A program made the position numbers and the translations under genes. Below the pieces are notes generated by a model. The model was not told where the DNA came from. It made no database searches and saw only the letters and a list, made by a program, of their open reading frames with translations. Positions 2,540 through 36,074 of a DNA stretch of 36,074 bases are shown one piece after another (the first letter of the stretch is position 1; each line of letters starts with the position of its first letter). This DNA comes from an uncultured bacterium. GTDB taxonomy: Bacteria; Abyssobacteria; SURF-5. The DNA is taken from positions 1-36,074 of the forward strand of contig CAZSKP010000014.1 of the NCBI GenBank assembly GCA_964607485.1, in the 5' to 3' direction.

Positions 2540-2555
2540 GCAAGTCCTGTGCCAA
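2540..2555 (-). promoter_or_regulatory. Sigma-54 (-24/-12) promoter
   Basis: Minus strand TTGGCAC-AGGAC-TTGC matches TGGCAC-N5-TTGC exactly; AT-rich tract upstream (~2571-2590) where IHF commonly binds. Confidence 0.75.
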
Positions 2556-2701: not shown

Positions 2702-3442
2702 TCACTCGTCGGTGGAGCGAGCAAGGTAGTACCGGCAGATGTGTCTCAGGCAACACGAGGGACATCGAGGCCGGCGGGCATGACACGTCCTGCGTCCATG
2801 TTCGATGAGGTTGAGATGGAGCGGGTATGCGAGTCCTGCGGGCAGTAGTTCGGCCCAGAGTTTGTGGGCATGTTCGAGGCTTGTGTTGTCGGGAATCAGG
2901 CCGAGCCTCTTTGACACGCGCAGGATGTGCGTGTCCACCGGAAACACGTTCATCCCGCACCCGAACAGCAGCACGCAGTTTACCGTCTTCGGACCGACAC
3001 CCTTGAATCCGCCGAGGGCCGCCGCCGCCCGCTCGGGTTTCATGCGGCAAAGGGAACGGAGCGAAAGCCTGCCCTGGCTCTCGTGAATCCGGGAAAGGAT
3101 GTTCTTTATTCGCCGCGCCTTCGTTCTGGCGAGACCGCCGACGCGAATCGCGTTCTCTATCTGACGAGCGGGGGCAAGTCTTGCCGCGTTCCAATCGTCG
3201 AACCGCTTCTGCAACCGTTCGAAGGCTCTGTGACTGTTGGTGTCGGATGTGTTCTGGGAGAGGATCGTCTGCAGGAGGACAGCCAGCGGGTCGGTCCGCT
3301 CTCGCTTCGGAGGCGGGCCGTATTCCTTGCGCAGCAGTAGCTCAATTGTGCGGACGGTCTTCTTCTTTCCCCCTGGCTTGGAATACACGGAATGGAGGCT
3401 CACGTACTCTTCGACCCCGCCGCTACTGGCGGAGCGCTTCAA
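2702..3442 (-). CDS. nth: Endonuclease III-like HhH-GPD DNA glycosylase with [4Fe-4S] cluster
   Basis: ILSQNTSD, Hh[15 protein letters not shown]-terminal [17 protein letters not shown] (Cx6Cx2Cx5C). Start uncertain (TTG overlapping upstream stop, or GTG 3403). Confidence 0.85.
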
Positions 3443-3984
3443 AACAGAAACACGGCTGCTGCAATCACGGTGGTATAGTAATTGCCTTTGATGACGGCCG
3501 ACTGTGTGACGTTGGTCGTCCGAACTATCTCGTTGCTGATCTGGAAGACCTCCTTCTTCTGGTCCCAGCTCTCGTCTTCGTCGAATTCTATTCCCAGAGT
3601 GGAGGCCAGCATGGCGGCCGCGAGGTCTTCGGCATAGTCGCCTGCCACGGTGTCGGTCTGTCCATAGGCATGGTGCTCGCTCAAATATCCGTACATAGAG
3701 CGGTCTTGAGGGACGGCGCAGCCGATGGAGGCGGCGATAAGGCGACGGGGCTCATTGCTGGAGCAGCGCGCCATCACGCAAAAGGTGAGCATCCCCGGTT
3801 TAAGATGCTTTATCCCCTCCCTGCGGCTTATGATCTTGCACTGTGGCGGGAGGATGCTTGAGACGGAGACGAGGTTGCACATCTCGATGTCGGCGTCCCG
3901 CAGCGCCAACTCATAGGAACGAAGCTCCTCTTTGTGAGTGCCATGGCCTTTTGTGAAGAACATTCTCCTGGGAACCAGTTCCAT
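3439..3984 (-). CDS. pdaD: Pyruvoyl-dependent arginine decarboxylase
   Basis: [12 protein letters not shown]...[25 protein letters not shown] with Ser-Ser autocleavage site; [22 protein letters not shown]. Confidence 0.93.
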
Positions 3985-4024
3985 CGGCGTTTCTCCTGCT
4001 TACCATATCCATGTACTGACTATC

Positions 4025-4942
4025 TCACCGACCCGTGAGCACATAGCCCCAAACCTTATACAGAAGCCGCGCTGCCGCGAACTCCGGATGAACCAGCCCG
4101 GCCACGGGCGCAAGCTCGACCAGGTCGAGCCCGACGACCTTCCTTGCCCCAGCCACAGCCCGGAGCAGGCCCAGAACGTCATCCCACAGGAGGCCGCCCG
4201 GCTCGGGGGTGCCCACCGCGGGCATCAAGGGTGGATCGAACACATCGACATCGATGCTGAGGTAAACCTTCGGGCCGAGGCTATCAATCAGGCGCTCTAT
4301 GAGCGCTTCCCGCTCCTTCGAAGCTTGTGCGCCGCGAAACTCATGCGCCCAGAACGTCGCAATCCTGTTCTTCCGGAGCGCGACCGCCTCCGGCTCGCTC
4401 AGGCTTCTGACCCCGGCCTGCACGAGCCGACACGCCTCGGCGATTCGTCTGCCGACGCAGGCGTGGCTGTATCTGTTTCCGCGGTAGCTGTCCCTGAAGT
4501 CGGCATGCGCATCGAGGAAAAGCACGCTCAGTTCCGGATGTATGCGGCTCAGCGCGCGCACCATCCCCAGGCTGACCGTGTGTTCGCCTCCCAGCAGTGT
4601 GACAAACTTGCCGCGCTTCAGGTATCTCGTGGCCACGGCGCTCAGCCGCTCTATCATTTCCTCGGCGTCGTCCACCGTGTCCAGAGGGGGCAGGGTATGG
4701 ATGCCCGCTCTGCAGACTTCGGAGCGAAGTTCCTCATCGTAGAGTTCCATGTTGGTCGAGGCTTCGATTATGGCGCTCGGTCCCTGGCGGCACCCGGCGC
4801 GATAGGTGGTCGAAGCTTCGTAGGGAACGGGCAGGACGACGAACGCGCTTTTTTCGGCTCCGCTCAGACGCGGTGGGAGCGCTCCGAAATTGTGCGAGGG
4901 GTAGAACCAATCCTCACGCGGCCTTTTTGCGGTTCCGCCCAT
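4025..4942 (-). CDS. speB: Agmatinase (ureohydrolase)
   Basis: LGGEHTVS, DAHAD, SHAC, SIDVDVFDP, GTPEPGG. Start moved to ATG 4942, just after the stop of the upstream gene. Confidence 0.92.
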   Translation of the reverse strand: MGGTAKRPREDWFYPSHNFGALPPRLSGAEKSAFVVLPVPYEASTTYRAGCRQGPSAIIEASTNMELYDEELRSEVCRAGIHTLPPLDTVDDAEEMIERLSAVATRYLKRGKFVTLLGGEHTVSLGMVRALSRIHPELSVLFLDAHADFRDSYRGNRYSHACVGRRIAEACRLVQAGVRSLSEPEAVALRKNRIATFWAHEFRGAQASKEREALIERLIDSLGPKVYLSIDVDVFDPPLMPAVGTPEPGGLLWDDVLGLLRAVAGARKVVGLDLVELAPVAGLVHPEFAAARLLYKVWGYVLTGR

Positions 4943-4947
4943 AGCGC

Positions 4948-5979
4948 TTAGTTCTCGGGCCATGCGAGCGGCAGCTCGGGGGCTTTGCGAGACGCTATCA
5001 GCTCTCCGTTCTGCTGAACCAGTGCGTGCACAACCAGAGGCAGAGAAATCGTGGCATCGCAATACGCCGTGACCTTCTTGGCTTTCCGTGCGACCTTTCC
5101 CCACGATTGGGCCTCTTCAAGCGTGCATCCGCTGAGTCCGCCCCAGTGAGGCGGGTCGACCGAAAGTTGAATCGCGTAGGCGTGCCCATGGACGGGATAG
5201 CCCATCAGCGGAGCCGTGACCTCGGTCTGTTGTATGAAGTTTTTCGGCGTGCCGCCGGCCACATATATCACGCCGGTCGCCTTGGCGTCCGCAGCGAGCT
5301 TTGCCGTCTCGCTCACGTCGGAGATGACGTCGAGTTGCGGAATCTTTCCGCCGTTTGTGGCTGCCACTGCAAGCGCTATTCCTATCGACGAGTCGCTGAT
5401 GGCTGGGCAATAGACGGGCACTTTGGCCTCGTATGCCGCCGTGAGTATGCCCTCTTCCTTCCCGCTCTTCGACAACTTTGCTCCGAGAAGGTACAGGAAT
5501 TCGCGCGTGTTCAGTTTTCGGTCGCCGAGAGAGACACCGAAGTCGGCGATGAACTTGTCCGTCTTGAGAAAGGCCCAGTCGTTCGCGAAGACATCGTATA
5601 TCCTATCTATTCCGTGCTCCTTTAATAAGAGATCGTCGGCATATTCGGAGCCTTGGTAATGGAATCCTCCGATGCTCTCATGACAGTCATGGAACAGGTT
5701 GGCGCCGGTGCTCACAAGGCAATCGACCAATCTGTTCTTCACCAAATAGGCCGAGAGCTTTCTCATTCCGGCGGGCACCATGGCTCCCGCCAGACCCAGA
5801 AAGACGGTGGCATTGGCCCTGAGCATATCGGCCCAGATCTCAGCGGCCAGAGCCAGGTTCTTCCCTTGGAAGGCCGTATCGCCCATCCGCCGGAGCAGGT
5901 CGCCCACATCGGACCGAGCATCCACCCGAAGGGATTCAATCGGGTTTTCCAGAAAACCTTTCTCAGCTTTTCTCTTCAC
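4948..5979 (-). CDS. Deoxyhypusine synthase-like protein (probable homospermidine biosynthesis)
   Basis: GLAGAMVPAG, STGANLFHD, DRIYDV, PAISDSSIG, GGTPKNF, GGLSGCTLEEAQSWGK retaining the catalytic Lys; GGAGG before GTG. Confidence 0.9.
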   Translation of the reverse strand: MKRKAEKGFLENPIESLRVDARSDVGDLLRRMGDTAFQGKNLALAAEIWADMLRANATVFLGLAGAMVPAGMRKLSAYLVKNRLVDCLVSTGANLFHDCHESIGGFHYQGSEYADDLLLKEHGIDRIYDVFANDWAFLKTDKFIADFGVSLGDRKLNTREFLYLLGAKLSKSGKEEGILTAAYEAKVPVYCPAISDSSIGIALAVAATNGGKIPQLDVISDVSETAKLAADAKATGVIYVAGGTPKNFIQQTEVTAPLMGYPVHGHAYAIQLSVDPPHWGGLSGCTLEEAQSWGKVARKAKKVTAYCDATISLPLVVHALVQQNGELIASRKAPELPLAWPEN

Positions 5980-29548: not shown

Positions 29549-29600
29549 TCCATCACGCTCCAGCTCGCCGGGTCCAAACCGCTACCCGTGTTCGGGATAC

Positions 29601-29630
29601 ACTTTACCATTTCACCGTGAAGCGTGTCAA
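29601..29630 (-). promoter_or_regulatory. Sigma-70 promoter of SPOR/nucleotidyltransferase genes
   Basis: Minus strand TTGACA-N18-TAAAGT with extended -10 TG. Confidence 0.55.
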
Positions 29631-29672
29631 TCACACGGGCGATTTTCGCGGGAAGGAATGCGCCTGAGAGGG

Positions 29673-30599
29673 TCAGCTTTGCTCTTTCGCCGCCCCATCG
29701 GGCGACTGCGTTGCGGCTGCGGGGTCCGTCGATGTCGTGCCGGCGGCAGAAGGCTCGCCGACGACCCAGACGGGGCAGGCCGCCTGACGCGCAAGCCTGA
29801 TGGCGACGCTGCCAAACAGGAACTCCTCGGAGCGCGACAGCCTGTGGCGTCCGACAACGATCGCGCTGTAGCCGCCCGCCTTCAGCTCATCGAGTATCAC
29901 GTCCGAGGTGCGGGCGTTCTGCGAATGCGCGATGCGGCTCTCCAGGCGGGCTTCGTCGAACCCGCCCCGCAGCAACAGTTCGCGTGCCTTTTCGATTGCG
30001 CGCGCGCTCGATTCGAGAACCTTCGACTGCTCTTCCTCATGTTCTTTGTCCGACTCGAAAAGCTCGGGATTGGGCCTGTGCGACACGCTCAGCAGGGTGA
30101 CTTTCACATCAGGAACTCGGCCGAACAGGTTCGCGACGTAGCGCACCGCATTCATCGAGGCTCCGGAATTGTCGAGATACATGAGGAATCTCTGGTCAAT
30201 GGGAAACGTTGTCGCGGGATAAGAGGCGGGCTCGCGGATGGCCTCCTCATAGCCGCTCCTTATATCGGCATAGGTGCCCGTGAGAAAACCGACGACGAAG
30301 AGCAGGAATATCTGGATGCCGTTGCTGACTGCCAGGTCGGTGGTCGGCATCATCACGGTCACGGCGTGATGGATGTACACGGCGGAAATGACGGCGGCGG
30401 CGGCGAGCCCGCCCTTCTTGCCGAACCACCATCCGGAAAGCGAGACCGGAACAAAGAAGAGTGTCTGGAGTAGTATGTGCAGATACATCAGCCGGTGCGG
30501 TGTTCCGTAGTGGAAGAGGACGGTGCCAATGATGAGACACGCTATCAGCAGCAGTTTCGATTTCTTGTCCGACACGCTTATCACGAAACCTTTCTTCAC
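29673..30599 (-). CDS. Universal stress protein fused to an N-terminal 4-TM (DUF4118-like) domain
   Basis: Four hydrophobic helices then USP fold (FLMYLDNSGAS, AIVVGRHRLS, FLFGSVAIRL, CPVWVV); GTGA overlap with the kinase gene. Confidence 0.85.
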   Translation of the reverse strand: MKKGFVISVSDKKSKLLLIACLIIGTVLFHYGTPHRLMYLHILLQTLFFVPVSLSGWWFGKKGGLAAAAVISAVYIHHAVTVMMPTTDLAVSNGIQIFLLFVVGFLTGTYADIRSGYEEAIREPASYPATTFPIDQRFLMYLDNSGASMNAVRYVANLFGRVPDVKVTLLSVSHRPNPELFESDKEHEEEQSKVLESSARAIEKARELLLRGGFDEARLESRIAHSQNARTSDVILDELKAGGYSAIVVGRHRLSRSEEFLFGSVAIRLARQAACPVWVVGEPSAAGTTSTDPAAATQSPDGAAKEQS

Positions 30600-31585
30600 G
30601 TCGTCAATGGACGGTGATCTTCCGCGGGCATCGATGCCGTTGCGTCGGCCAGGTCTTCGGCAATCTCGGCGGCCGACTCGTAGTACCGTTCGGTTCCGGC
30701 GGCAAAGTGCATCAGCACCCGGTTCAGCTTGTCGGGAACGTAGGGATAGAGTTTCTTCCAGTTCATCAGGCGTGTGGGCTCGACCGGCGAAAAGTCTTCG
30801 GGGCTCAGGTCTTCCATCGCCTGTGCGAGAGCCGGGTTGAAACGAAGGTTGTGAATGGTTCTCTCGCCCTTGCCCAGCAGCTCGCTGAGGATGTTGCCGA
30901 CTCCGAGCAGGTCGAGCGCCAGCGGGGCCTCGTCAAAGATGAAATCGTAATCGAAGTCGATCCAGCGGAGCCGGCCGGTTTCCCTGGCGAGTATGAGATG
31001 GTCGGCCCGAACGTCGCCGTGCCGTATCCCGAGTCGGTGAAGAGAATCGAGCGCAGTCAGGCACGGGACGAACAATTGCAGGAGCGACGGGAGCAGCTCG
31101 CGGAAGTAGGCCTCGTGGGGTCCGGGGTGTGTCTCTATCTTGTCCAGAAGGGTCTTCCCGCTGATGTGGTCGATGATGCGCACCTCTTTGTTTCGTTCGG
31201 CAGCGATCGTGCGGCCCTGCATGAAGTGCACGTGTCCCCTGACGCACTCGAGCGCGCGCCCCTCTTTCGCAGGGCTCCGAAAACAGCGAACCACATGCTC
31301 GCCGTATTTCAGGTCGAACTGCTCGAGATAGACCAGCTTGATGATTTTGCGCTTTCCCGTTGACACGTCGTAGGCGTATTTCACCCAATACTTCGGCTCC
31401 TCATCCAGCCCGAAGCTCCTCTCCCTCGCGGTTCCACTGATGACGTAGTGGTGACCGTCGAGCAGCACGATATCGCCGCGATTGATGGAAAAGAAGTCGC
31501 TCACTTCTTCGTGAATGGTCACGCTCGCGGGGCGAATATTCAGATATTTCTCCACTTCGTCCTGCAAATCCGTTCGCGCGCTCAT
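30596..31585 (-). CDS. Atypical protein-kinase-like (Ser/Thr kinase-fold) protein
   Basis: KIIKL Lys, KE helix-C Glu, catalytic loop LH..GIRHGDVRADH, WIDFD; GGAGAGG before ATG 31585. Confidence 0.75.
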   Translation of the reverse strand: MSARTDLQDEVEKYLNIRPASVTIHEEVSDFFSINRGDIVLLDGHHYVISGTARERSFGLDEEPKYWVKYAYDVSTGKRKIIKLVYLEQFDLKYGEHVVRCFRSPAKEGRALECVRGHVHFMQGRTIAAERNKEVRIIDHISGKTLLDKIETHPGPHEAYFRELLPSLLQLFVPCLTALDSLHRLGIRHGDVRADHLILARETGRLRWIDFDYDFIFDEAPLALDLLGVGNILSELLGKGERTIHNLRFNPALAQAMEDLSPEDFSPVEPTRLMNWKKLYPYVPDKLNRVLMHFAAGTERYYESAAEIAEDLADATASMPAEDHRPLTT

Positions 31586-31633
31586 CGTATCCTCTCCAAT
31601 CAATGTTCTTCGCCGGGTTTTGCTGTCATTAAT

Positions 31634-31650
31634 AGCAAGTTCGATGCCCA
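31634..31650 (-). promoter_or_regulatory. Sigma-54 promoter of kinase-USP operon
   Basis: Minus strand GGCAT-CGAAC-TTGCT (GG-N10-GC); AT-rich tract at ~31692-31729 upstream. Confidence 0.6.
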
Positions 31651-31929
31651 AATTGGATGAGCGAAATGCGTGATCTTGAGCTACGCACGGGAAGTTATAT
31701 ATTCTTGTTATACAAAAGTTTATGATATTGCGGAAATGTCGGGGCGTTGGCGGTCCCGCGGGCTGGCGTGTTGGCAATCCTACACAGGCTGTTTGCTAAC
31801 CGCCAGATGGAGAGTCCCGACCCTTCATCATGGCAGGCTATCGCGGGCGAGCGTGCAACCGGTCAGCCACACCGACACGCGGTGCTGGCAAGGCCCCTAC
31901 CCTGCTGAAATCAGACGCGTTATGAATGA

Positions 31930-31953
31930 AGGGGGCTCTCCCGAGAGCCCCCT
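31930..31953. repeat. Perfect GC-rich inverted repeat
   Basis: AGGGGGCTCTC-cc-GAGAGCCCCCT with no U-tract on either side. Confidence 0.7.
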
Positions 31954-32008
31954 CCGTTGCCCCGAATCGGCTCGCGGTCGTCTCCGGCCACTGCGATGCC
32001 CGACTCCT

Positions 32009-32025
32009 TTGGCACCTTAGTTGCT
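32009..32025 (+). promoter_or_regulatory. Sigma-54 promoter of YHS gene
   Basis: TTGGCAC-CTTAG-TTGCT, exact TGGCAC-N5-TTGC consensus. Confidence 0.78.
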
Positions 32026-32084
32026 TAGTTCTTCTTTGGCACTGTAGCCAGATAATGGCTAAGATAGATAGAAGGAGATAGGAG

Positions 32085-32285
32085 ATGATGATAATGGTTA
32101 GCGGAAAAACGTGCCAGGTTTGCGCGAAACCGATAAACGAAAAAGAAATGTATTTCGAGAAAAATTACAAGGGAACCACGTATTTTGCCTGTTGTCCGAT
32201 ATGCTTTTCGATTCTGCAGAAATATCCCGAAAAGCACATCGGGGCTGCGTTCCCTGAAATGCAACAGTCGGCCAAAGACAACTGA
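32085..32285 (+). CDS. Small YHS/TRASH-like metal-binding protein
   Basis: CQVC...YKGTTYFACCPIC...YPEKH; AAGGAG and AGGAG SDs; exact start among tandem ATGs uncertain. Confidence 0.8.
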   Translation: MMIMVSGKTCQVCAKPINEKEMYFEKNYKGTTYFACCPICFSILQKYPEKHIGAAFPEMQQSAKDN

Positions 32286-32653
32286 GGCCAGCCTGGGGCA
32301 TTCTTTCAGGCGGCTGAAAGATCAGGAGGATTCGCCTGAGGCCGCCTCAGGCACAACGGCCTACCCCGCGTTTCAACGTTGACCGGGTCGCCCTGCGGTG
32401 GATACGCGGGAGGAGAAATCCTGCGCCTTCCAGCCCGGCCGTACGGAGACTGTCCGCCGTGGCGGGTGATGTGAGGCGAATGGCCGGAGAATGCCGCCCT
32501 TGACACGATAGAGTGCCAAGAGCGATTCCGCAAAGGTTCGACTCCCTCAACAGAAAAATAGTATCATGTTCCCGAAACTCATACTCCGTGCAAATTCGTG
32601 TTTCGGCGGTTTGCTCTGATCCATGATCCGTGGTCCGATGAGGGAAGGACTCG

Positions 32654-33754
32654 ATGAACGCTCGCGAAAGATTCATCGCAACATGCAAATTCGAACCCGT
32701 TGACAGGCCGTTCAGAATGGAAACAATCGGCTTCTGGCCCGAGACAATCAACCGCTGGCACGAAGAAGGTCTGCCCGACTGGGCCGAAGAACTGACCGCA
32801 CTTGTGCACTTCGGGATGGACCTGCGGATGATCATTCATCTCGGTGACTTCGACAACCCTTGCCTCTATCCCGCCTTCGAGGAAGAGGTGATCGAAGAGA
32901 CCGAGAAATACAGGATCAAGCGCACGCCCGCGGGCTCGGTGATACGCGAGTTCACCGACGGCACGTCGTCGATTCCCGAATTCATGGAGTTCCCCGTAAA
33001 GGATATGCGCTCGTTCGAGCAAATGAGATGGAGGCTCGAGCCCTCGCTCACCGAACGTCTGGGCAGCGACTGGGATTACTCGTCGAGCGCATACAACGAG
33101 TCCGAGCTGCCTGTGTTCGTCTATACGTGCGGCCTGTTCGGGCTCGCACGGCATCTGCTCGGTTTCGAGAACCTGATGTACGCCTATTTCGATTCGCCCG
33201 AATTGATTCACGCCATCGGCGAGCAGTGGGTGAAGCTGTGCACCGCGTTTCTGGAGAAGGTCGCGTCAACCGTCAAGATCGACGCGATCGACTTCTGGGA
33301 GGACATGGCGTACCGCAACGGCCCGATGATCGGTCCCGAAATGTTCAAGGAGTTCATGTCGCCGTACTACAAGCGGGTCATCGACTGCGCGCGCTCGGTC
33401 GGGGTCGATGTGTTGGAGGTCGATTCCGACGGCAACATCAATCAGCTGATACCGCTGTTCGTCGATGCCGGCGTCAATTTGCTCTATCCGTTCGAGGTTC
33501 AGGCCGGAATGGACATCCTCAAGGTCCGCAAGCAATACGGGAAGCGGCTGGCGATCCTGGGCGGTCTCGACAAGCGGAAGCTTGCGCTCGACTTCGACGC
33601 CATCAGGGAAGAGGTCGAATCCAAAGTGCCCGTCATGCTCAAGCGAGGCGGCTACATCCCTTCCCTCGACCACAACGTCCCTCCCGACGTCCCCCTCGAA
33701 AACTTCGAGTATTATCTGAAGCTGGTGCGAGAGATTGGGGAGAGGGATGTGTAG
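32654..33754 (+). CDS. Uroporphyrinogen decarboxylase (URO-D/MtaA) superfamily protein, function unknown
   Basis: MNARERF...VDRP, FPVKD, LGFENLM, WEDMAY, DSDGN, PFEVQAGMD, GGLDK, GGYIPSLDH. Confidence 0.85.
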   Translation: MNARERFIATCKFEPVDRPFRMETIGFWPETINRWHEEGLPDWAEELTALVHFGMDLRMIIHLGDFDNPCLYPAFEEEVIEETEKYRIKRTPAGSVIREFTDGTSSIPEFMEFPVKDMRSFEQMRWRLEPSLTERLGSDWDYSSSAYNESELPVFVYTCGLFGLARHLLGFENLMYAYFDSPELIHAIGEQWVKLCTAFLEKVASTVKIDAIDFWEDMAYRNGPMIGPEMFKEFMSPYYKRVIDCARSVGVDVLEVDSDGNINQLIPLFVDAGVNLLYPFEVQAGMDILKVRKQYGKRLAILGGLDKRKLALDFDAIREEVESKVPVMLKRGGYIPSLDHNVPPDVPLENFEYYLKLVREIGERDV

Positions 33755-33848
33755 AATCGTCCGGCAACGCGGTCAGGCAAGAGTGTGAATGCAGGAATTG
33801 ATCGCGATTCTGCTCTCACGAGACGATGCGGTCGTCATGCAAATCATT

Positions 33849-34778
33849 TTAAGCCGCCACGTGCATTCTTATAAAAGCACAGATTTCATTCATTGCTTGC
33901 GTAGCTTCGGGAAAAAGGGGAGCGCATACGGGATAACAATGAAACAGCCCCTCTCCGACTCTCAATGTAACATCCACGCCTGCACCCTTAGCCTTTTCTG
34001 CAAAGCACACCGAGTCATCGAGAAGCGTTTCGTCTCCTCCGACATAAATGAGTGTAGGTGGAAGACCACGAAGGTCGCCGTAAAGAGGGGATATCCACGG
34101 CAGTTCCGGATCGCTGTCGCCCACGTAATGTCTGCTGCAAGCGGCCGTCATCCCCTCGGGAGAAAGACATTTCTTGGCGTTGCTCCGGTAAGACTCCCCT
34201 GAACACTTGAGGTCCGTCCAGGGAGAGATCGCCACCGCAGCCGAGGGAAGAGGAATGCCTTTATCCCTCAAGGCAAGTAACGTGGCCAAACACAGACCTC
34301 CTCCGGCGGAGTCTCCGGCAAATACAATGTGAGAAGATGAAACGCCCTGGGCCAGCAACCAGCGGTACGCTTTGACTGAGTCATCGAGCGCTGCGGGGAA
34401 GGTATGTTCGGGGGCGAGACGATACTCATACAGCAGAGCGGCAGTGTTGGTGCCTTTGACGAATTTGGAGACGTGAATTCGGTGATCGGAACACGAACCC
34501 GAAACATATCCGCCGCCGTGAGCAAAGAATATCACTTTGTCTTTCGCCGCCCCGGAAGGCAATATCCATTCCGCCGGGAGACCGTCGATCGTAACAGGCG
34601 TGACTTTTATCCCTGCGGGGATTTTGCCGAACCGCTTGGCGCCTTTTTCACATTCTCGGCGGAAACGGAGTATCGATTCCTTCTTGTTCCAATCGATGTT
34701 CTCTTTCCTTAACCGGAATTGGAACAAATGGCGATTTCTCAATATAAATACCAGCAGACGGCTTCGCAAACTCGGCAC
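33849..34778 (-). CDS. Alpha/beta hydrolase, hormone-sensitive-lipase family esterase
   Basis: HGGGY, YRLAPEH, GDSAGG nucleophile, ISPWTD, ETLLDD, GLFH; GAGGAG before GTG. Confidence 0.93.
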   Translation of the reverse strand: MPSLRSRLLVFILRNRHLFQFRLRKENIDWNKKESILRFRRECEKGAKRFGKIPAGIKVTPVTIDGLPAEWILPSGAAKDKVIFFAHGGGYVSGSCSDHRIHVSKFVKGTNTAALLYEYRLAPEHTFPAALDDSVKAYRWLLAQGVSSSHIVFAGDSAGGGLCLATLLALRDKGIPLPSAAVAISPWTDLKCSGESYRSNAKKCLSPEGMTAACSRHYVGDSDPELPWISPLYGDLRGLPPTLIYVGGDETLLDDSVCFAEKAKGAGVDVTLRVGEGLFHCYPVCAPLFPEATQAMNEICAFIRMHVAA

Positions 34779-34891
34779 TTACTATTCTCCTCTCGCATAA
34801 CGGCTAAGCTCGGCCGCCAGAAGCTGCGAGCAAAGTTGACTAGATGACATTATTTGCCTTCTCCCAACACATCAATAAAAATTATGAGCAC

Positions 34892-34919
34892 ATTATAACA
34901 GAATCAACAAACACCTCAA
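34892..34919 (-). promoter_or_regulatory. Sigma-70 promoter of esterase
   Basis: Minus strand TTGAGG-N16-TATAAT with extended -10 TG. Confidence 0.5.
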
Positions 34920-34950
34920 GGGCAGCCGCTGCCCTCGCTTCCGGCCTAAA

Positions 34951-34980
34951 CTTGCCCAACGGCAAGACTTTCTGTAAGAT
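34951..34980 (+). promoter_or_regulatory. Possible sigma-70 promoter of the histidine kinase with palindrome over the -35
   Basis: TTGCCC-N17-TAAGAT; CTTGCC-caac-GGCAAG at 34951-34966. Confidence 0.4.
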
Positions 34981-35051
34981 AGAATAGATTTACCCGACAA
35001 GCGGCGAAAGGATACGCTGAAAATCCGGCTCGGAGTCGATATCAACCGAAA

Positions 35052-36011
35052 ATGAGGCACAACCCAAAGGCGCGAGACTGGATTCGTCTGACGACGCTCG
35101 CGATTGTCATAGCGGCGATAACCGCCCAGCACTACCTCACCACCGTCAGCCACGAGAACCTGTCACTGCACAACATCCACTACCTCCTGTACTTCCTGCC
35201 GATACTGATGGCCGCGATATGGTACGGACTGCTCGGAGGCGTCGCGACCGCGATAGTGGTGAGCGTTCTCTATGCGCCGGTCGTGTTCGGCCCCGTCGGG
35301 CAGAACGTGTTCACCTCGGGCACCCAGCGGGTTCTGGAGCTGGTCATCTACAACGTGGTCGGTTGGGTGACCGGAATCCTGTCGGAACGCGAAAGACGCG
35401 AGCGCGAAGAGTACCGGCGAACAGCCGAAGAACTTCAGACGGCGTACCGCAAGCTCCGCGAGCAGACCGACCTCATCGTCGAGAAAGAGGAGCAGCTTCG
35501 CCGGGCCGAACGGTTGAGCACCCTGGGCGAGCTCGCGGCTGGAATCGCTCATGAGATACGCAATCCGCTCGCATCTATCAAGGGGACGGCGGAAATACTG
35601 CAAGACTCCGCCACCCCCCAGTCGAGGCGGAAAGAATTTTCGCAATTGATGCTCGACGAGGTGAACCGACTCAACAAAGTCGTGGCGAATTTCCTCGAGC
35701 TGGCACGATTCCGACGGCTGCACCGCGAGAATGCGAACATCAACGACCTCCTCTGGCGGATGCTCCGCATCATCGACCTCCAGCTTGGACGCAAGAACAT
35801 CGCGGTCCGCACCCATCTTATGCCGGAACTGCCCGAGCTCAGCCTCGACGTTTCCCAGGTAGAGCAGGCGGTCTTGAACGTGCTGCTGAACGCAGTCGGC
35901 GCCATGCCCGACGGCGGCGAGCTCGACCTGACGACGAAGCTCGAGACGCGCGACGGCGCAGAAGTGATAGTGGTCGAGATTGCCGATACCGGCGCGGGCA
36001 TTGCGCCCGAG
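35052..36011 (+). CDS. Sensor histidine kinase (NtrB/AtoS-like) with 4-TM DUF4118-like sensor, 3'-truncated
   Basis: Missing from the ORF track because it has no stop. Hand translation MRHNPKARDW...HYLTT...LHNIHYLLYFLPI...ERLSTLGELAAGIAHEIRNPL (H-box), LNVLLNA (N-box), DTGAGI (G1). Confidence 0.92.
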
Positions 36012-36074
36012 CTGTCACTTATACACAACTCCCAGCCCACCAGACACGACGTCATCTCGTATGCCCTCTTGTGC
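36012..36074 (+). other. Illumina Nextera adapter read-through (technical artefact)
   Basis: CTGTCACTTATACACAACTCCCAGCCCACCAGAC-ACGACGTC-ATCTCGTATGCCCTCTTGTGC aligns without gaps to CTGTCTCTTATACACATCTCCGAGCCCACGAGAC-[8-nt index]-ATCTCGTATGCCGTCTTCTGC with 6 substitutions. Confidence 0.96.

What the first reader, a model, noticed from the sequence alone, without database searches (positions are those of the whole stretch)
29673..36011. Candidate undescribed signalling module: the same His-containing 4-TM sensor on a USP and on a histidine kinase, plus an atypical kinase and a YHS protein under divergent sigma-54 promoters
Seen: the USP N-terminus (FHYGT..LHILLQTLFFVPV..WWFGKKGG..ISAVY..FVVGFLTG) aligns by eye with the HK N-terminus (QHYLT..LHNIHYLLYFLPI..IWYGLLGG..VSVLY..NVVGWVTG), sharing HYxT, LH, FxP, WxGxxGG, SxxY and VVGxxTG. 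Between them are back-to-back sigma-54 sites driving kinase-USP and a Cys-rich YHS/TRASH protein. Established: AHEIRNPL-type kinases commonly pair with NtrC-like sigma-54 activators, and YHS/TRASH domains are linked to heavy-metal handling. Inference: one ligand (possibly Cu or another metal bound by the membrane His residues) is read by two outputs, a transcriptional HK to sigma-54 arm and a post-translational kinase/USP arm that the first arm induces.
Basis: partly seen in the sequence, partly recalled or inferred. Interest (0 to 1): 0.75.

Follow-up and report, generated by a model that had tools for sequence, protein, structure and literature searches.

The report
Shared membrane sensor signalling gene cluster
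An uncultured sediment bacterium attaches one small membrane domain to a stress protein, a sensor kinase and two other signalling enzymes, beside a widespread but unstudied kinase plus stress-protein gene pair; the parts are known kinds, the combination is new, and the signal is unknown.

Summary
The N-terminal membrane domains of the USP (29673-30599, -) and of the histidine kinase (35052 onward, +) are homologous (31 of 100 identities, E 1e-9). The kinase-like gene, the Cys-rich YHS gene and two divergent sigma-54 sites exist. The next gene on the contig is an NtrC-type sigma-54 activator, as predicted.

The reading needs three changes.
- The membrane domain is not private to these two proteins. 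It is a subfamily of DUF4118 with 1810 representative clusters, mostly small histidine kinases. This genome has exactly four copies, one each on a USP, a kinase, an HD-GYP and a cyclase.
- The kinase-like gene plus USP is an old two-gene cassette, found in 75 of 80 loci, mostly Desulfobacterota. Only this family fused the USP to the membrane domain and put the pair under sigma-54.
- Linkage to the histidine kinase and regulator is partial: adjacent in 3 of 6 family genomes.

Both promoters and a palindrome between them are conserved. A metal ligand is neither supported nor excluded. The closest analogue is KdpD, which has a kinase, USP, DUF4118 and HisKA in one chain. The scan noted a similar kinase and membrane-USP pair in another genome (e1-1891837). 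I rate it a new variant of a known kind.

The parts
29673..30599 (-). Membrane USP, 308 aa. Residues 1-128 are a DUF4118-like domain with four hydrophobic segments. Residues 137-280 are the universal stress protein domain.
   Evidence: Pfam Usp 72 bits. The N-terminus scores 19.3 bits on DUF4118, below the cut-off, but is homologous to the kinase N-terminus at E 1e-9. Hydrophobic segments lie at 13-33, 36-56, 62-84 and 88-113. Orthologs form 20 clusters.
30596..31585 (-). Kinase-like protein (PKL), 329 aa: a divergent eukaryotic-type protein kinase fold with catalytic motifs kept. Its stop overlaps the USP start (GTGA).
   Evidence: Pkinase scores only 15.8 bits, below the cut-off. The AF2 model has pLDDT 89.3. 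Best Foldseek match is PknB, E 1.9e-9. Invariant K83, E108, HGDxRxDH 189-196 and WIDFD 208-212. Start codon, overlap.
31635..31649 (-). Sigma-54 -24/-12 element (GGGCATCGAACTTGC), about 50 nt upstream of the PKL start.
   Evidence: present in 6 of 6 family loci and almost identical in 5 of them.
31775..31795 (.). Palindrome CAATC-N11-GTTTG between the two promoters: candidate binding site for the sigma-54 activator.
   Evidence: Invariant alignment columns cluster here. CAAAC-N11-GTTTG is perfect in L094, L095 and L096. Genome-wide it lies near a sigma-54-like site at only 2 places.
32010..32024 (+). Sigma-54 -24/-12 element (TGGCACCTTAGTTGC), 60 nt upstream of the YHS start.
   Evidence: Perfect consensus. 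A matching element lies upstream of the divergent YHS gene in 4 of 4 loci.
32085..32285 (+). YHS/TRASH-like Cys-rich protein, 66 aa.
   Evidence: Pfam YHS 24.9 bits, below the cut-off of 30.3. C10, C13, C36, C37 and C40 are invariant in 5 orthologs.
32654..33754 (+). URO-D/MtaA-like protein, 366 aa. Probably an insertion, not part of the module.
   Evidence: Pfam URO-D 72 bits. NCBIfam MtaA/CmuA hits are far below their cut-offs. Absent from this position in L093, L095 and L100.
33849..34778 (-). Hormone-sensitive-lipase-type esterase, 309 aa. Probably an insertion, not part of the module.
   Evidence: Abhydrolase_3 186 bits. Absent from relatives at this position.
35052..36074 (+). Histidine kinase: DUF4118 + HisKA + HATPase_c. 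It is cut by the window end and complete at contig C14:36188 (378 aa). The NtrC-type regulator follows at about C14:36280-37668, outside the window.
   Evidence: Orthologs with the regulator occur in 9 of 10 family genomes.

Best explanation
This is a signalling node specific to one lineage, assembled from known parts.

Shown:
- A conserved cassette encodes a divergent eukaryotic-type protein kinase (PKL) and a USP of the ATP-binding class.
- In this Abyssubacteria-like family the USP is fused to a four-segment membrane domain.
- That domain belongs to a DUF4118 subfamily marked by two histidines, a tyrosine, a proline and a GxxGG turn.
- The same domain is the only candidate input domain of a small AtoS/ZraS-like histidine kinase, whose partner is an NtrC-type regulator.
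- PKL-USP and a divergent Cys4 YHS gene each carry a conserved sigma-54 promoter, with a conserved palindrome between them.

Inferred:
- The histidine kinase reads a cue at the membrane, or one delivered by the YHS protein, and phosphorylates the regulator.
- The regulator binds the palindrome and fires both promoters.
- The induced membrane USP sits beside the kinase in the membrane, reads the same cue or a nucleotide, and gates PKL. This adds a protein-phosphorylation output to the transcriptional one.
- YHS is an accessory partner of the membrane domain rather than a metal chaperone.
- The signal itself is unknown.
For: Homology of the membrane domains: E 1e-9; 9 invariant columns across four output types.

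PKL-USP pair: a USP lies on the same strand within 0.7 kb of PKL in 75 of 80 loci. In the window the stop and start overlap by 4 nt.

PKL is probably active: the lysine, glutamate, HGD and DFD positions are invariant in 18 sequences, and the fold is kinase-like.

Fusion and sigma-54 control are specific to this family. Membrane USP orthologs form 20 clusters and occur in 6 of 9 family genomes against 0 of 31 others. A sigma-54-like site lies upstream of PKL in 6 of 6 family loci, but in only 3 of 76 loci of the wide set, two of which are family loci.

Palindrome.

Regulator and sigma factor: the regulator has REC + Sigma54_activat + HTH_8, and rpoN is present.

Gene order: YHS then kinase then regulator in L093 and L100, and YHS, membrane HD-GYP, kinase, regulator in L095.

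YHS directly precedes a gene carrying this membrane domain in 4 of 8 loci, with three different outputs: kinase, HD-GYP and cyclase.

Analogy: KdpD joins a serine kinase, USP, DUF4118 and HisKA, and acts both on transcription and on the pump protein (PMC11018627, abstract).
Against: - In 3 of 6 family genomes (G003, G004, G009) the kinase and regulator lie on another contig. They stay in a fixed block with PNP, PIN/TRAM and IspD genes.
- The genome has 29 full sigma-54 activators, so another one could serve these promoters.
- In the window the kinase has no sigma-54 site of its own, and two unrelated genes separate it from YHS.
- The window USP has Arg where 62 of 76 partner USPs have the second glycine of the nucleotide loop, so nucleotide binding may be altered.
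- The AF2 model draws residues 49-82 as one helix. This does not fit a simple four-helix hairpin reading. I could not read coordinates to see whether the histidines cluster.
- There are no expression data and no binding test.
Confidence: 0.5

Rival explanations
1. The neighbours are only loosely related. The histidine kinase and regulator belong to a separate, fixed housekeeping-side block and control other genes. The PKL-USP and YHS promoters are driven by a different sigma-54 activator. On this view the shared membrane domain reflects a common modular anchor, not a shared circuit.
For: The block of kinase, regulator, PNP, PIN/TRAM and IspD is constant in all 6 genomes, while PKL-USP|YHS is beside it in only 3. 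There are 29 activators in the genome. The membrane domain has 1810 representative clusters.
Against: Adjacency recurs in G000, G005, G006 and metagenome contig L100. In L093 and L100 YHS appears to be the first gene of the kinase-regulator operon. In G000 the palindrome with sigma-54 sites is essentially unique to this locus.
Confidence: 0.25
2. Histidines of the membrane domain bind copper or another metal, the YHS protein handles the same metal, and both the kinase and the USP read it.
For: - Histidines are invariant or nearly so at positions 30 and 41, and 'PH' sits at 77-78 of the family consensus. All lie near the predicted outer face.
- The YHS protein has five invariant cysteines.
- The cyclase paralog lies downstream of CusA- and CusB-like genes, the latter with a heavy-metal-binding domain.
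- The kinase core resembles ZraS.
- An earlier scan note links such kinases to metal genes (e1-1891837, not checked here).
Against: No metal pump, chaperone or resistance gene lies beside the module in the window or in L093-L097. The one exception is a type-II cation P-type ATPase convergent to YHS in L097. YHS scores below the Pfam cut-off. Conserved histidines can equally serve structure, protons or another ligand.
Confidence: 0.2
3. This is a second-messenger model. The USP domain is a nucleotide receptor (ATP, cAMP or c-di-AMP) that switches PKL, as the USP region does in some KdpD proteins. The membrane domain only co-localises it with the cyclase, HD-GYP and kinase paralogs.
For: - Partner USPs match ATP-binding USP structures: MJ0577 at 2.3e-7 and TeaD at 3.8e-7.
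- They keep G-x2-G-x9-G-S in 62 of 76 sequences.
- The same membrane domain sits on a class III cyclase and on an HD-GYP.
- A short KdpD is controlled by c-di-AMP (PMC11018627, abstract).
Against: The window USP has Arg at the second glycine. The cyclase paralog was found in only 1 of 10 family genomes. There are no binding data.
Confidence: 0.25
4. This is a split or degenerate KdpD system for potassium control.
For: It combines a kinase, USP, DUF4118 and HisKA, as KdpD does. A profile match to the KdpD membrane region gives probability 73.9% and E 2.8e-5.
Against: - No KdpD_N domain was found on any of the proteins.
- No kdpFABC genes lie near.
- The regulator is NtrC-type, not OmpR-type.
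- KdpD aligns only over its residues 429-496 and lacks the His/Thr/His/Pro/GG/Tyr signature.
Confidence: 0.03

Closest known systems
KdpD of Escherichia coli, a tandem serine/histidine kinase (Silberberg et al. 2024, PMC11018627; abstract read)
   Same: It combines a serine kinase, a USP domain, a DUF4118 membrane domain and a HisKA/HATPase kinase. One sensor gives a transcriptional and a post-translational output. The membrane regions are distantly related (hhalign probability 73.9%, E 2.8e-5).
   Different: - KdpD is one chain; here the functions are spread over four genes.
- The serine kinase of KdpD is the KdpD_N domain, whereas PKL has a eukaryotic-type kinase fold.
- The regulator is NtrC-type and sigma-54 dependent.
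- No kdp pump genes are present.
- The signature residues of this membrane subfamily are absent from KdpD.
ZraS/ZraR and AtoS/AtoC two-component systems
   Same: The kinase core scores best on AtoS (157 bits) and ZraS (147.5 bits), and the regulator on AtoC (502 bits). All are below the equivalog cut-offs. The kinase carries the AHEIRNPL H-box, and the regulators are sigma-54 dependent.
   Different: By my own knowledge ZraS has a periplasmic sensor domain and AtoS has PAS. Here the only input is the DUF4118-like membrane domain, directly before HisKA.
MHYT membrane sensor domain (Galperin and colleagues 2001; recalled, not read here)
   Same: It is a membrane domain with conserved His/Tyr/Thr near the outer face, fused to varied signalling outputs, and was proposed to bind a metal or a gas.
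   Different: The membrane domain gave no MHYT hit in Pfam even at E up to 10. It has one HYxT motif, not three MHYT repeats, and four hydrophobic segments, not six.
USP-protein kinase fusions of plants (Tkaczuk et al. 2013, PMC3673472; passages read)
   Same: A USP domain is coupled to a eukaryotic-type protein kinase domain.
   Different: Those are fused in one eukaryotic protein. Here they are two bacterial genes, and the USP carries a membrane domain.
Earlier scan note e1-1891837 (another genome; AI note, not checked)
   Same: A ZraS-like kinase and a membrane-anchored USP share one four-segment membrane module.
   Different: It is not a sequence look-alike of this USP or PKL in the scan's index. 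The listing of that note mentions no PKL, YHS or sigma-54 promoters.

Membership tests
DUF4118 (PF13493) | Score over the Pfam gathering cut-off (28.4 bits), histidine kinase N-terminus | tested here: met
   40.6 bits at residues 15-123; 40.2 bits on the full protein.
DUF4118 (PF13493) | Score over the Pfam gathering cut-off, USP N-terminus | tested here: not met
   19.3 bits, E 0.00099; it is the best Pfam hit but lies below the cut-off. Homology to the kinase domain is shown separately. 71 of the 150 top family members match DUF4118 at E up to 1e-4.
DUF4118 (PF13493) | Four membrane helices, as in KdpD | tested here: inconclusive
   There are four hydrophobic segments. The AF2 model shows helices at 9-32, 38-47, 49-82 and 87-122. 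KdpD aligns only from the second segment onward.
Universal stress protein (PF00582) | Score over the Pfam cut-off (24 bits) | tested here: met
   72 bits at residues 137-280.
ATP-binding (UspFG/MJ0577-type) USP | Nucleotide loop G-x2-G-x9-G-[ST] (motif recalled from my own knowledge) | tested here: not met
   The window USP reads G250-x2-R253-x9-G263-S264. 62 of 76 partner USPs have Gly at position 253. The family profile matches MJ0577 and TeaD.
Eukaryotic-type (Hanks) protein kinase (PF00069) | Score over the Pfam cut-off (31.7 bits) | tested here: not met
   15.8 bits, E 0.0097. The paralog scores 22 bits.
Eukaryotic-type (Hanks) protein kinase (PF00069) | Bilobal kinase fold | tested here: met
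   AF2 pLDDT 89.3. Foldseek finds PknB at E 1.9e-9, probability 1.00, TM 0.45-0.53, with at least 500 kinase chains at E up to 0.001. The profile matches MSK1 at 3.7e-8.
Eukaryotic-type (Hanks) protein kinase (PF00069) | Catalytic Lys, Glu, HRD-like Asp and DFG-like Asp (roles assigned by analogy, recalled) | tested here: met
   K83, E108, D191 (in HGD) and D210/D212 (in WIDFD) are invariant in 18 sequences. No glycine-rich loop was recognised.
YHS (PF04945) / TRASH | Score over the Pfam cut-off (30.3 bits) | tested here: not met
   24.9 bits, E 2e-5.
YHS (PF04945) / TRASH | Cysteine pattern C-x2-C-x19-22-C-x3-C (pattern recalled) | tested here: met
   C10-x2-C13-x22-C36-x3-C40, with an extra C37; all are invariant in 5 orthologs.
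NtrC-type sigma-54 activator response regulator | REC + Sigma54_activat AAA+ + HTH_8, each over its cut-off | tested here: met
   112, 245 and 53 bits. It is below the equivalog cut-offs for AtoC, NtrC and ZraR, so it cannot be named as any one of them.
Sigma-54 promoter | GG at -24 and GC at -12 with fixed spacing, conserved position, and rpoN present | tested here: met
   Transcription from these sites was not testable here.
KdpD | KdpD_N domain and linkage to kdpFABC and kdpE | tested here: not met
   No such domain or gene was found.
MHYT domain | Pfam match | tested here: not met
   It is not among the hits at E up to 10.

The most novel reading that the evidence does not exclude
The His/His/Tyr-marked DUF4118 subfamily is a true ligand-sensing membrane domain, and the Cys4 YHS protein is its partner. 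In one cell it feeds four outputs:
- sigma-54 transcription, through the kinase and regulator;
- protein phosphorylation, through the membrane USP and PKL;
- c-di-GMP breakdown, through the HD-GYP;
- cyclic-nucleotide synthesis, through the cyclase.

On this reading the widespread PKL-USP cassette is a non-homologous counterpart of the serine-kinase/USP arm of KdpD, and the USP is the switch of the kinase.
Probability: 0.2. Interest if true: 0.75.

Novelty: new variant of a known kind. Interest (0 to 1): 0.5.

Why it matters
DUF4118 is one of the commonest membrane domains of sensor kinases and still has no assigned function. Only 10 papers in the searched library mention it. A subfamily with invariant polar residues, one copy on each of four outputs in a single genome, and a recurring small Cys4 neighbour gives a concrete, mutable hypothesis for what such domains do.

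Separately, the PKL-USP pair recurs in hundreds of anaerobes: 426 protein clusters and 546 genome loci. It is annotated only as hypothetical or generic protein kinase. Showing that a USP gates a dedicated kinase would give a biochemical role to a large class of USPs. It would also extend the logic recently shown for KdpD.

Tried and rejected
- **Complex prediction, PKL (A1) with the USP domain (A5).** I handed it in 27 times. The queue was full every time, so the job never ran and there is no result.
- **Expression.** No RNA holder is listed for 29600-33800.
- **Fold of the membrane domain.**
  - Foldseek against the PDB gave no match at E up to 0.001; the best was 0.46.
  - The wide VIA search gave a best Z of 8.6, on designed helical repeats. 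That is within what the tool calls common for helical bundles.
- **Defence system.** PADLOC gave only weak generic kinase hits (PD-T4-6, 21.7 bits) for PKL and none for USP or YHS. The NCBIfam MADS6 hit of 20.6 bits is far below its cut-off of 460. Rejected.
- **Split KdpD and MHYT.** Both rejected; see the membership test.
- **Regulon search.** I looked for the palindrome plus a sigma-54-like site across G000. It found only this locus and one weak place, C10:65195.
- **Metagenome scan with the YHS alignment.** It returned only 5 loci, 3 of them close.
- **Other conserved neighbours of PKL-USP in the wide set.** These were ketopantoate reductase (11 loci), RACo (6), NtrC-type regulator (5) and M48 peptidase (5). 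None is general. The ORF picker missed PKL in 16 of 80 loci, so these are minimum counts.
- **Literature.**
  - 'YHS domain' with 'sigma-54' gave 0 papers.
  - DUF4118 with USP and sensor gave 2 irrelevant papers.
  - USP with protein kinase and gene pair gave only plant papers.
  - USP with Hanks-type gave 4 papers, none on this pair.
  - One search gave nothing specific.
  - The library misses most subscription journals.
- **Scan index.** Searching by sequence for PKL and for the USP returned nothing.

Full report
**What is there.** The window is the first 36 kb of a 113-kb contig (C14) of a 4.7-Mb draft genome. The interval holds six genes.
- A 308-aa USP with a hydrophobic N-terminus: 29673-30599, minus strand.
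- A 329-aa kinase-like protein, here called PKL: 30596-31585, minus strand. The start is the ATG behind GGAGAGGA, and its stop overlaps the USP start as GTGA.
- A 66-aa Cys-rich YHS-like protein: 32085-32285, plus strand.
- A URO-D/MtaA-like protein: 32654-33754, plus strand.
- A hormone-sensitive-lipase-type esterase: 33849-34778, minus strand.
- A histidine kinase that starts at 35052 and runs off the window.

On the contig the kinase is 378 aa (DUF4118 + HisKA + HATPase_c). It is followed by a REC + Sigma54_activat + HTH_8 regulator. The best-named relatives of these proteins are Candidatus Abyssubacteria MAGs.

**The shared membrane domain.** The two N-termini align with 31 of 100 identities, E 1e-9.
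- The kinase domain is a Pfam DUF4118 member (40.6 bits against a cut-off of 28.4). The USP domain is sub-threshold (19.3 bits).
- The own genome has exactly four copies, each on a different output: the USP, the kinase, an HD-GYP on contig C44, and a class III cyclase on contig C5.
- In an alignment of 10 such domains, H30, T33, H41, L47, P51, W58, G60, G63 and Y75 are invariant.
- A profile of the domain finds 1810 representative clusters at E up to 0.001, and 811 at E up to 1e-10.
- Of the top 150 hits, Pfam finds:
  - HisKA on 94;
  - a DUF4118 match on 71;
  - HD_5 on 5;
  - Usp on 5;
  - a cyclase domain on 2;
  - SpoIIE on 1;
  - GGDEF on 1.
- In that set the first histidine is invariant. 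The second histidine, Y, P, two glycines and the 'PH' proline are at 90% or more.
- E. coli KdpD aligns only over its residues 429-496 (probability 73.9%, E 2.8e-5) and lacks these signature residues.

So this is a distinct, modular subfamily of DUF4118. It is used mainly by small kinases and is not a sensor private to the two genes.

Hydrophobicity gives four segments (13-33, 36-56, 62-84, 88-113) and a Lys-rich N-terminus. With a cytoplasmic output domain, this puts H30 and H41 on either side of the short outer loop, and Y75, H77 and H78 in the outer half of segment 3. That placement is inference. The AF2 model is confident (pLDDT 91.6) but draws residues 49-82 as one helix. I could not read coordinates, so the geometry of the histidines is open. 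No solved structure matches clearly.

**The kinase-like protein and its USP.**
- PKL has no Pfam hit above the cut-off (Pkinase 15.8 bits).
- Its model (pLDDT 89.3) matches PknB, Src and other kinases (Foldseek E 1.9e-9). Its profile matches MSK1, RNase L and CK2.
- K83, E108, HGDxRxDH and WIDFD are invariant in 18 family members, so I expect an active kinase.
They lie mostly in Desulfobacterota and Nitrospirota.
- In the best 80 loci a USP gene lies on the same strand within 0.7 kb of PKL in 75. It is downstream in 63 and upstream in 12. Five loci have none: L008, L022, L037, L049 and L079.
- Most partner USPs are about 150-175 aa with no membrane part. They share VVGRxGLSxxEEFLFGS, with E258 and G263 in 76 of 76 and S255 in 70 of 76. 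They resemble ATP-binding USPs.
- The window USP has Arg at the second glycine of that loop.
- Other neighbours vary.
- A PKL paralog on contig C34 (40% identical) is followed not by a USP but by a HAMP kinase and a REC-GCV_H protein.

**What is special to this family.**
- Membrane USP orthologs form only 20 clusters. They occur in 6 of 9 same-family genomes and 0 of 31 others searched.
They are counted once below.
- Layouts in the six genomes:
  - G000: USP<-PKL | YHS-> URO-D-like-> <-esterase, kinase-> regulator->.
  - G005: USP<-PKL | YHS-> kinase-> regulator->.
  - G006: USP<-PKL | YHS-> membrane HD-GYP-> kinase-> regulator->.
  - G004: USP<-PKL | YHS-> only.
  - G003: USP<-PKL | membrane HD-GYP->, with YHS 3 kb away before a REC protein.
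  - G009: USP<-PKL, no YHS found.
- Two metagenome contigs add further layouts:
  - L100: PKL | YHS-> kinase-> regulator->.
  - L099: YHS-> membrane cyclase-> next to <-USP<-PKL.
- Kinase orthologs (68-77% identity) exist in all five relatives tested. In G003, G004 and G009 they lie on other contigs.
- The block of kinase, regulator, PNP, PIN/TRAM and IspD is constant in all six genomes.
- Kinase and regulator occur in 9 of 10 family genomes. The membrane HD-GYP occurs in 4 and the cyclase in 1.

**Promoters.**
- A sigma-54 element lies upstream of PKL in 6 of 6 family loci. It reads GGCATCGAACTTGCT in four (the window and L093, L094, L097), with variants in L095 and L096.
- A sigma-54 element also lies upstream of the divergent YHS gene in 4 of 4 loci.
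- In the wide set only 3 of 76 loci with enough upstream sequence have such a site within 350 nt. Two of these are family loci.
- Between the promoters the otherwise diverged spacer (43% mean column identity) keeps a palindrome. CAAAC-N11-GTTTG is perfect in L094, L095 and L096. It has one mismatch in the window (31775-31795) and is variant in L093 and L097.
- In G000 such a palindrome lies within 300 bp of a sigma-54-like site at only two places, this locus and a weak one.
- rpoN is present. The genome has 29 full sigma-54 activators.

**Reading.** I favour a circuit in which the DUF4118-type kinase and its NtrC-type regulator switch on both promoters. The induced membrane USP-PKL pair then adds a phosphorylation output. 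YHS, which directly precedes a gene with this membrane domain in 4 of 8 loci and with three different outputs, would act as a partner of the domain.

The steps from the kinase to the promoters, from the USP to PKL, and from YHS to the membrane domain are all inferred. The partial linkage (3 of 6 genomes) and the many activators are the main counter-evidence. A metal ligand remains a minority reading. There are no metal genes next to the module. The hints are the Cys4 protein, the histidines, and a Cus-like pair beside the cyclase paralog.

**Comparison with what is known.** KdpD is the nearest analogue. It has a serine kinase, USP, DUF4118 and HisKA in one chain and gives transcriptional and post-translational outputs (PMC11018627, abstract). 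Every defining KdpD feature other than the distant membrane homology is missing here.

The kinase core and the regulator are ordinary AtoS/ZraS-like and AtoC-like proteins, below the equivalog cut-offs. USP-kinase fusions are known from plants (PMC3673472, passages). I found no paper on the bacterial PKL-USP pair, on this DUF4118 subfamily, or on YHS under sigma-54. The library lacks most subscription journals. The scan itself noted a kinase and membrane-USP pair with a shared module in another genome (e1-1891837).

**Verdict.** The module is partly conserved and is built of known kinds in a new arrangement. The function and the signal are untested. Interest is moderate.

Noticed in passing
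G000 contig C34, locus L002:5570-8913: A PKL paralog (40% identical) is followed directly by a HAMP-HisKA-HATPase kinase and a REC + glycine-cleavage-H-domain protein. It lies downstream of NrfD-like, nitrate-reductase-gamma-like and Fer4/CCG genes. Here the kinase-like family is paired with a two-component system instead of a USP.
   Followed up: partly
G000 contig C5, locus L004:5668-12591: The membrane-domain cyclase paralog lies on the same strand just downstream of a methyltransferase, a CusA-like RND pump, and a CusB-like fusion protein with a heavy-metal-binding domain.
   Followed up: partly
window 2540-2554 (-): A second perfect sigma-54 consensus (TGGCACAGGACTTGC) lies about 375 nt upstream of a MshEN-domain T2SSE/PilB-type ATPase gene (241-2166, -). 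That gene also ends in a double zinc ribbon.
   Followed up: no
window 3439-5979 (-): A pyruvoyl arginine decarboxylase, an arginase-family protein (agmatinase-like) and a deoxyhypusine-synthase-like protein lie in a row. This is a polyamine (homospermidine-type) cluster.
   Followed up: no
window 32654-34778: A URO-D/MtaA-like protein and a GESAG-type hormone-sensitive-lipase esterase sit between YHS and the kinase only in this genome. The URO-D-like protein has several paralogs elsewhere in G000.
   Followed up: partly
L098:502-1008 (metagenome contig): Two or three YHS-like reading frames lie in tandem on a 1.4-kb contig.
   Followed up: no
L097:10019-10759 and row G004: In one relative the membrane USP matches only from residue 40 onward, and the tool reports one TGA inside the frame. 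The membrane part may be truncated or broken there.
   Followed up: no
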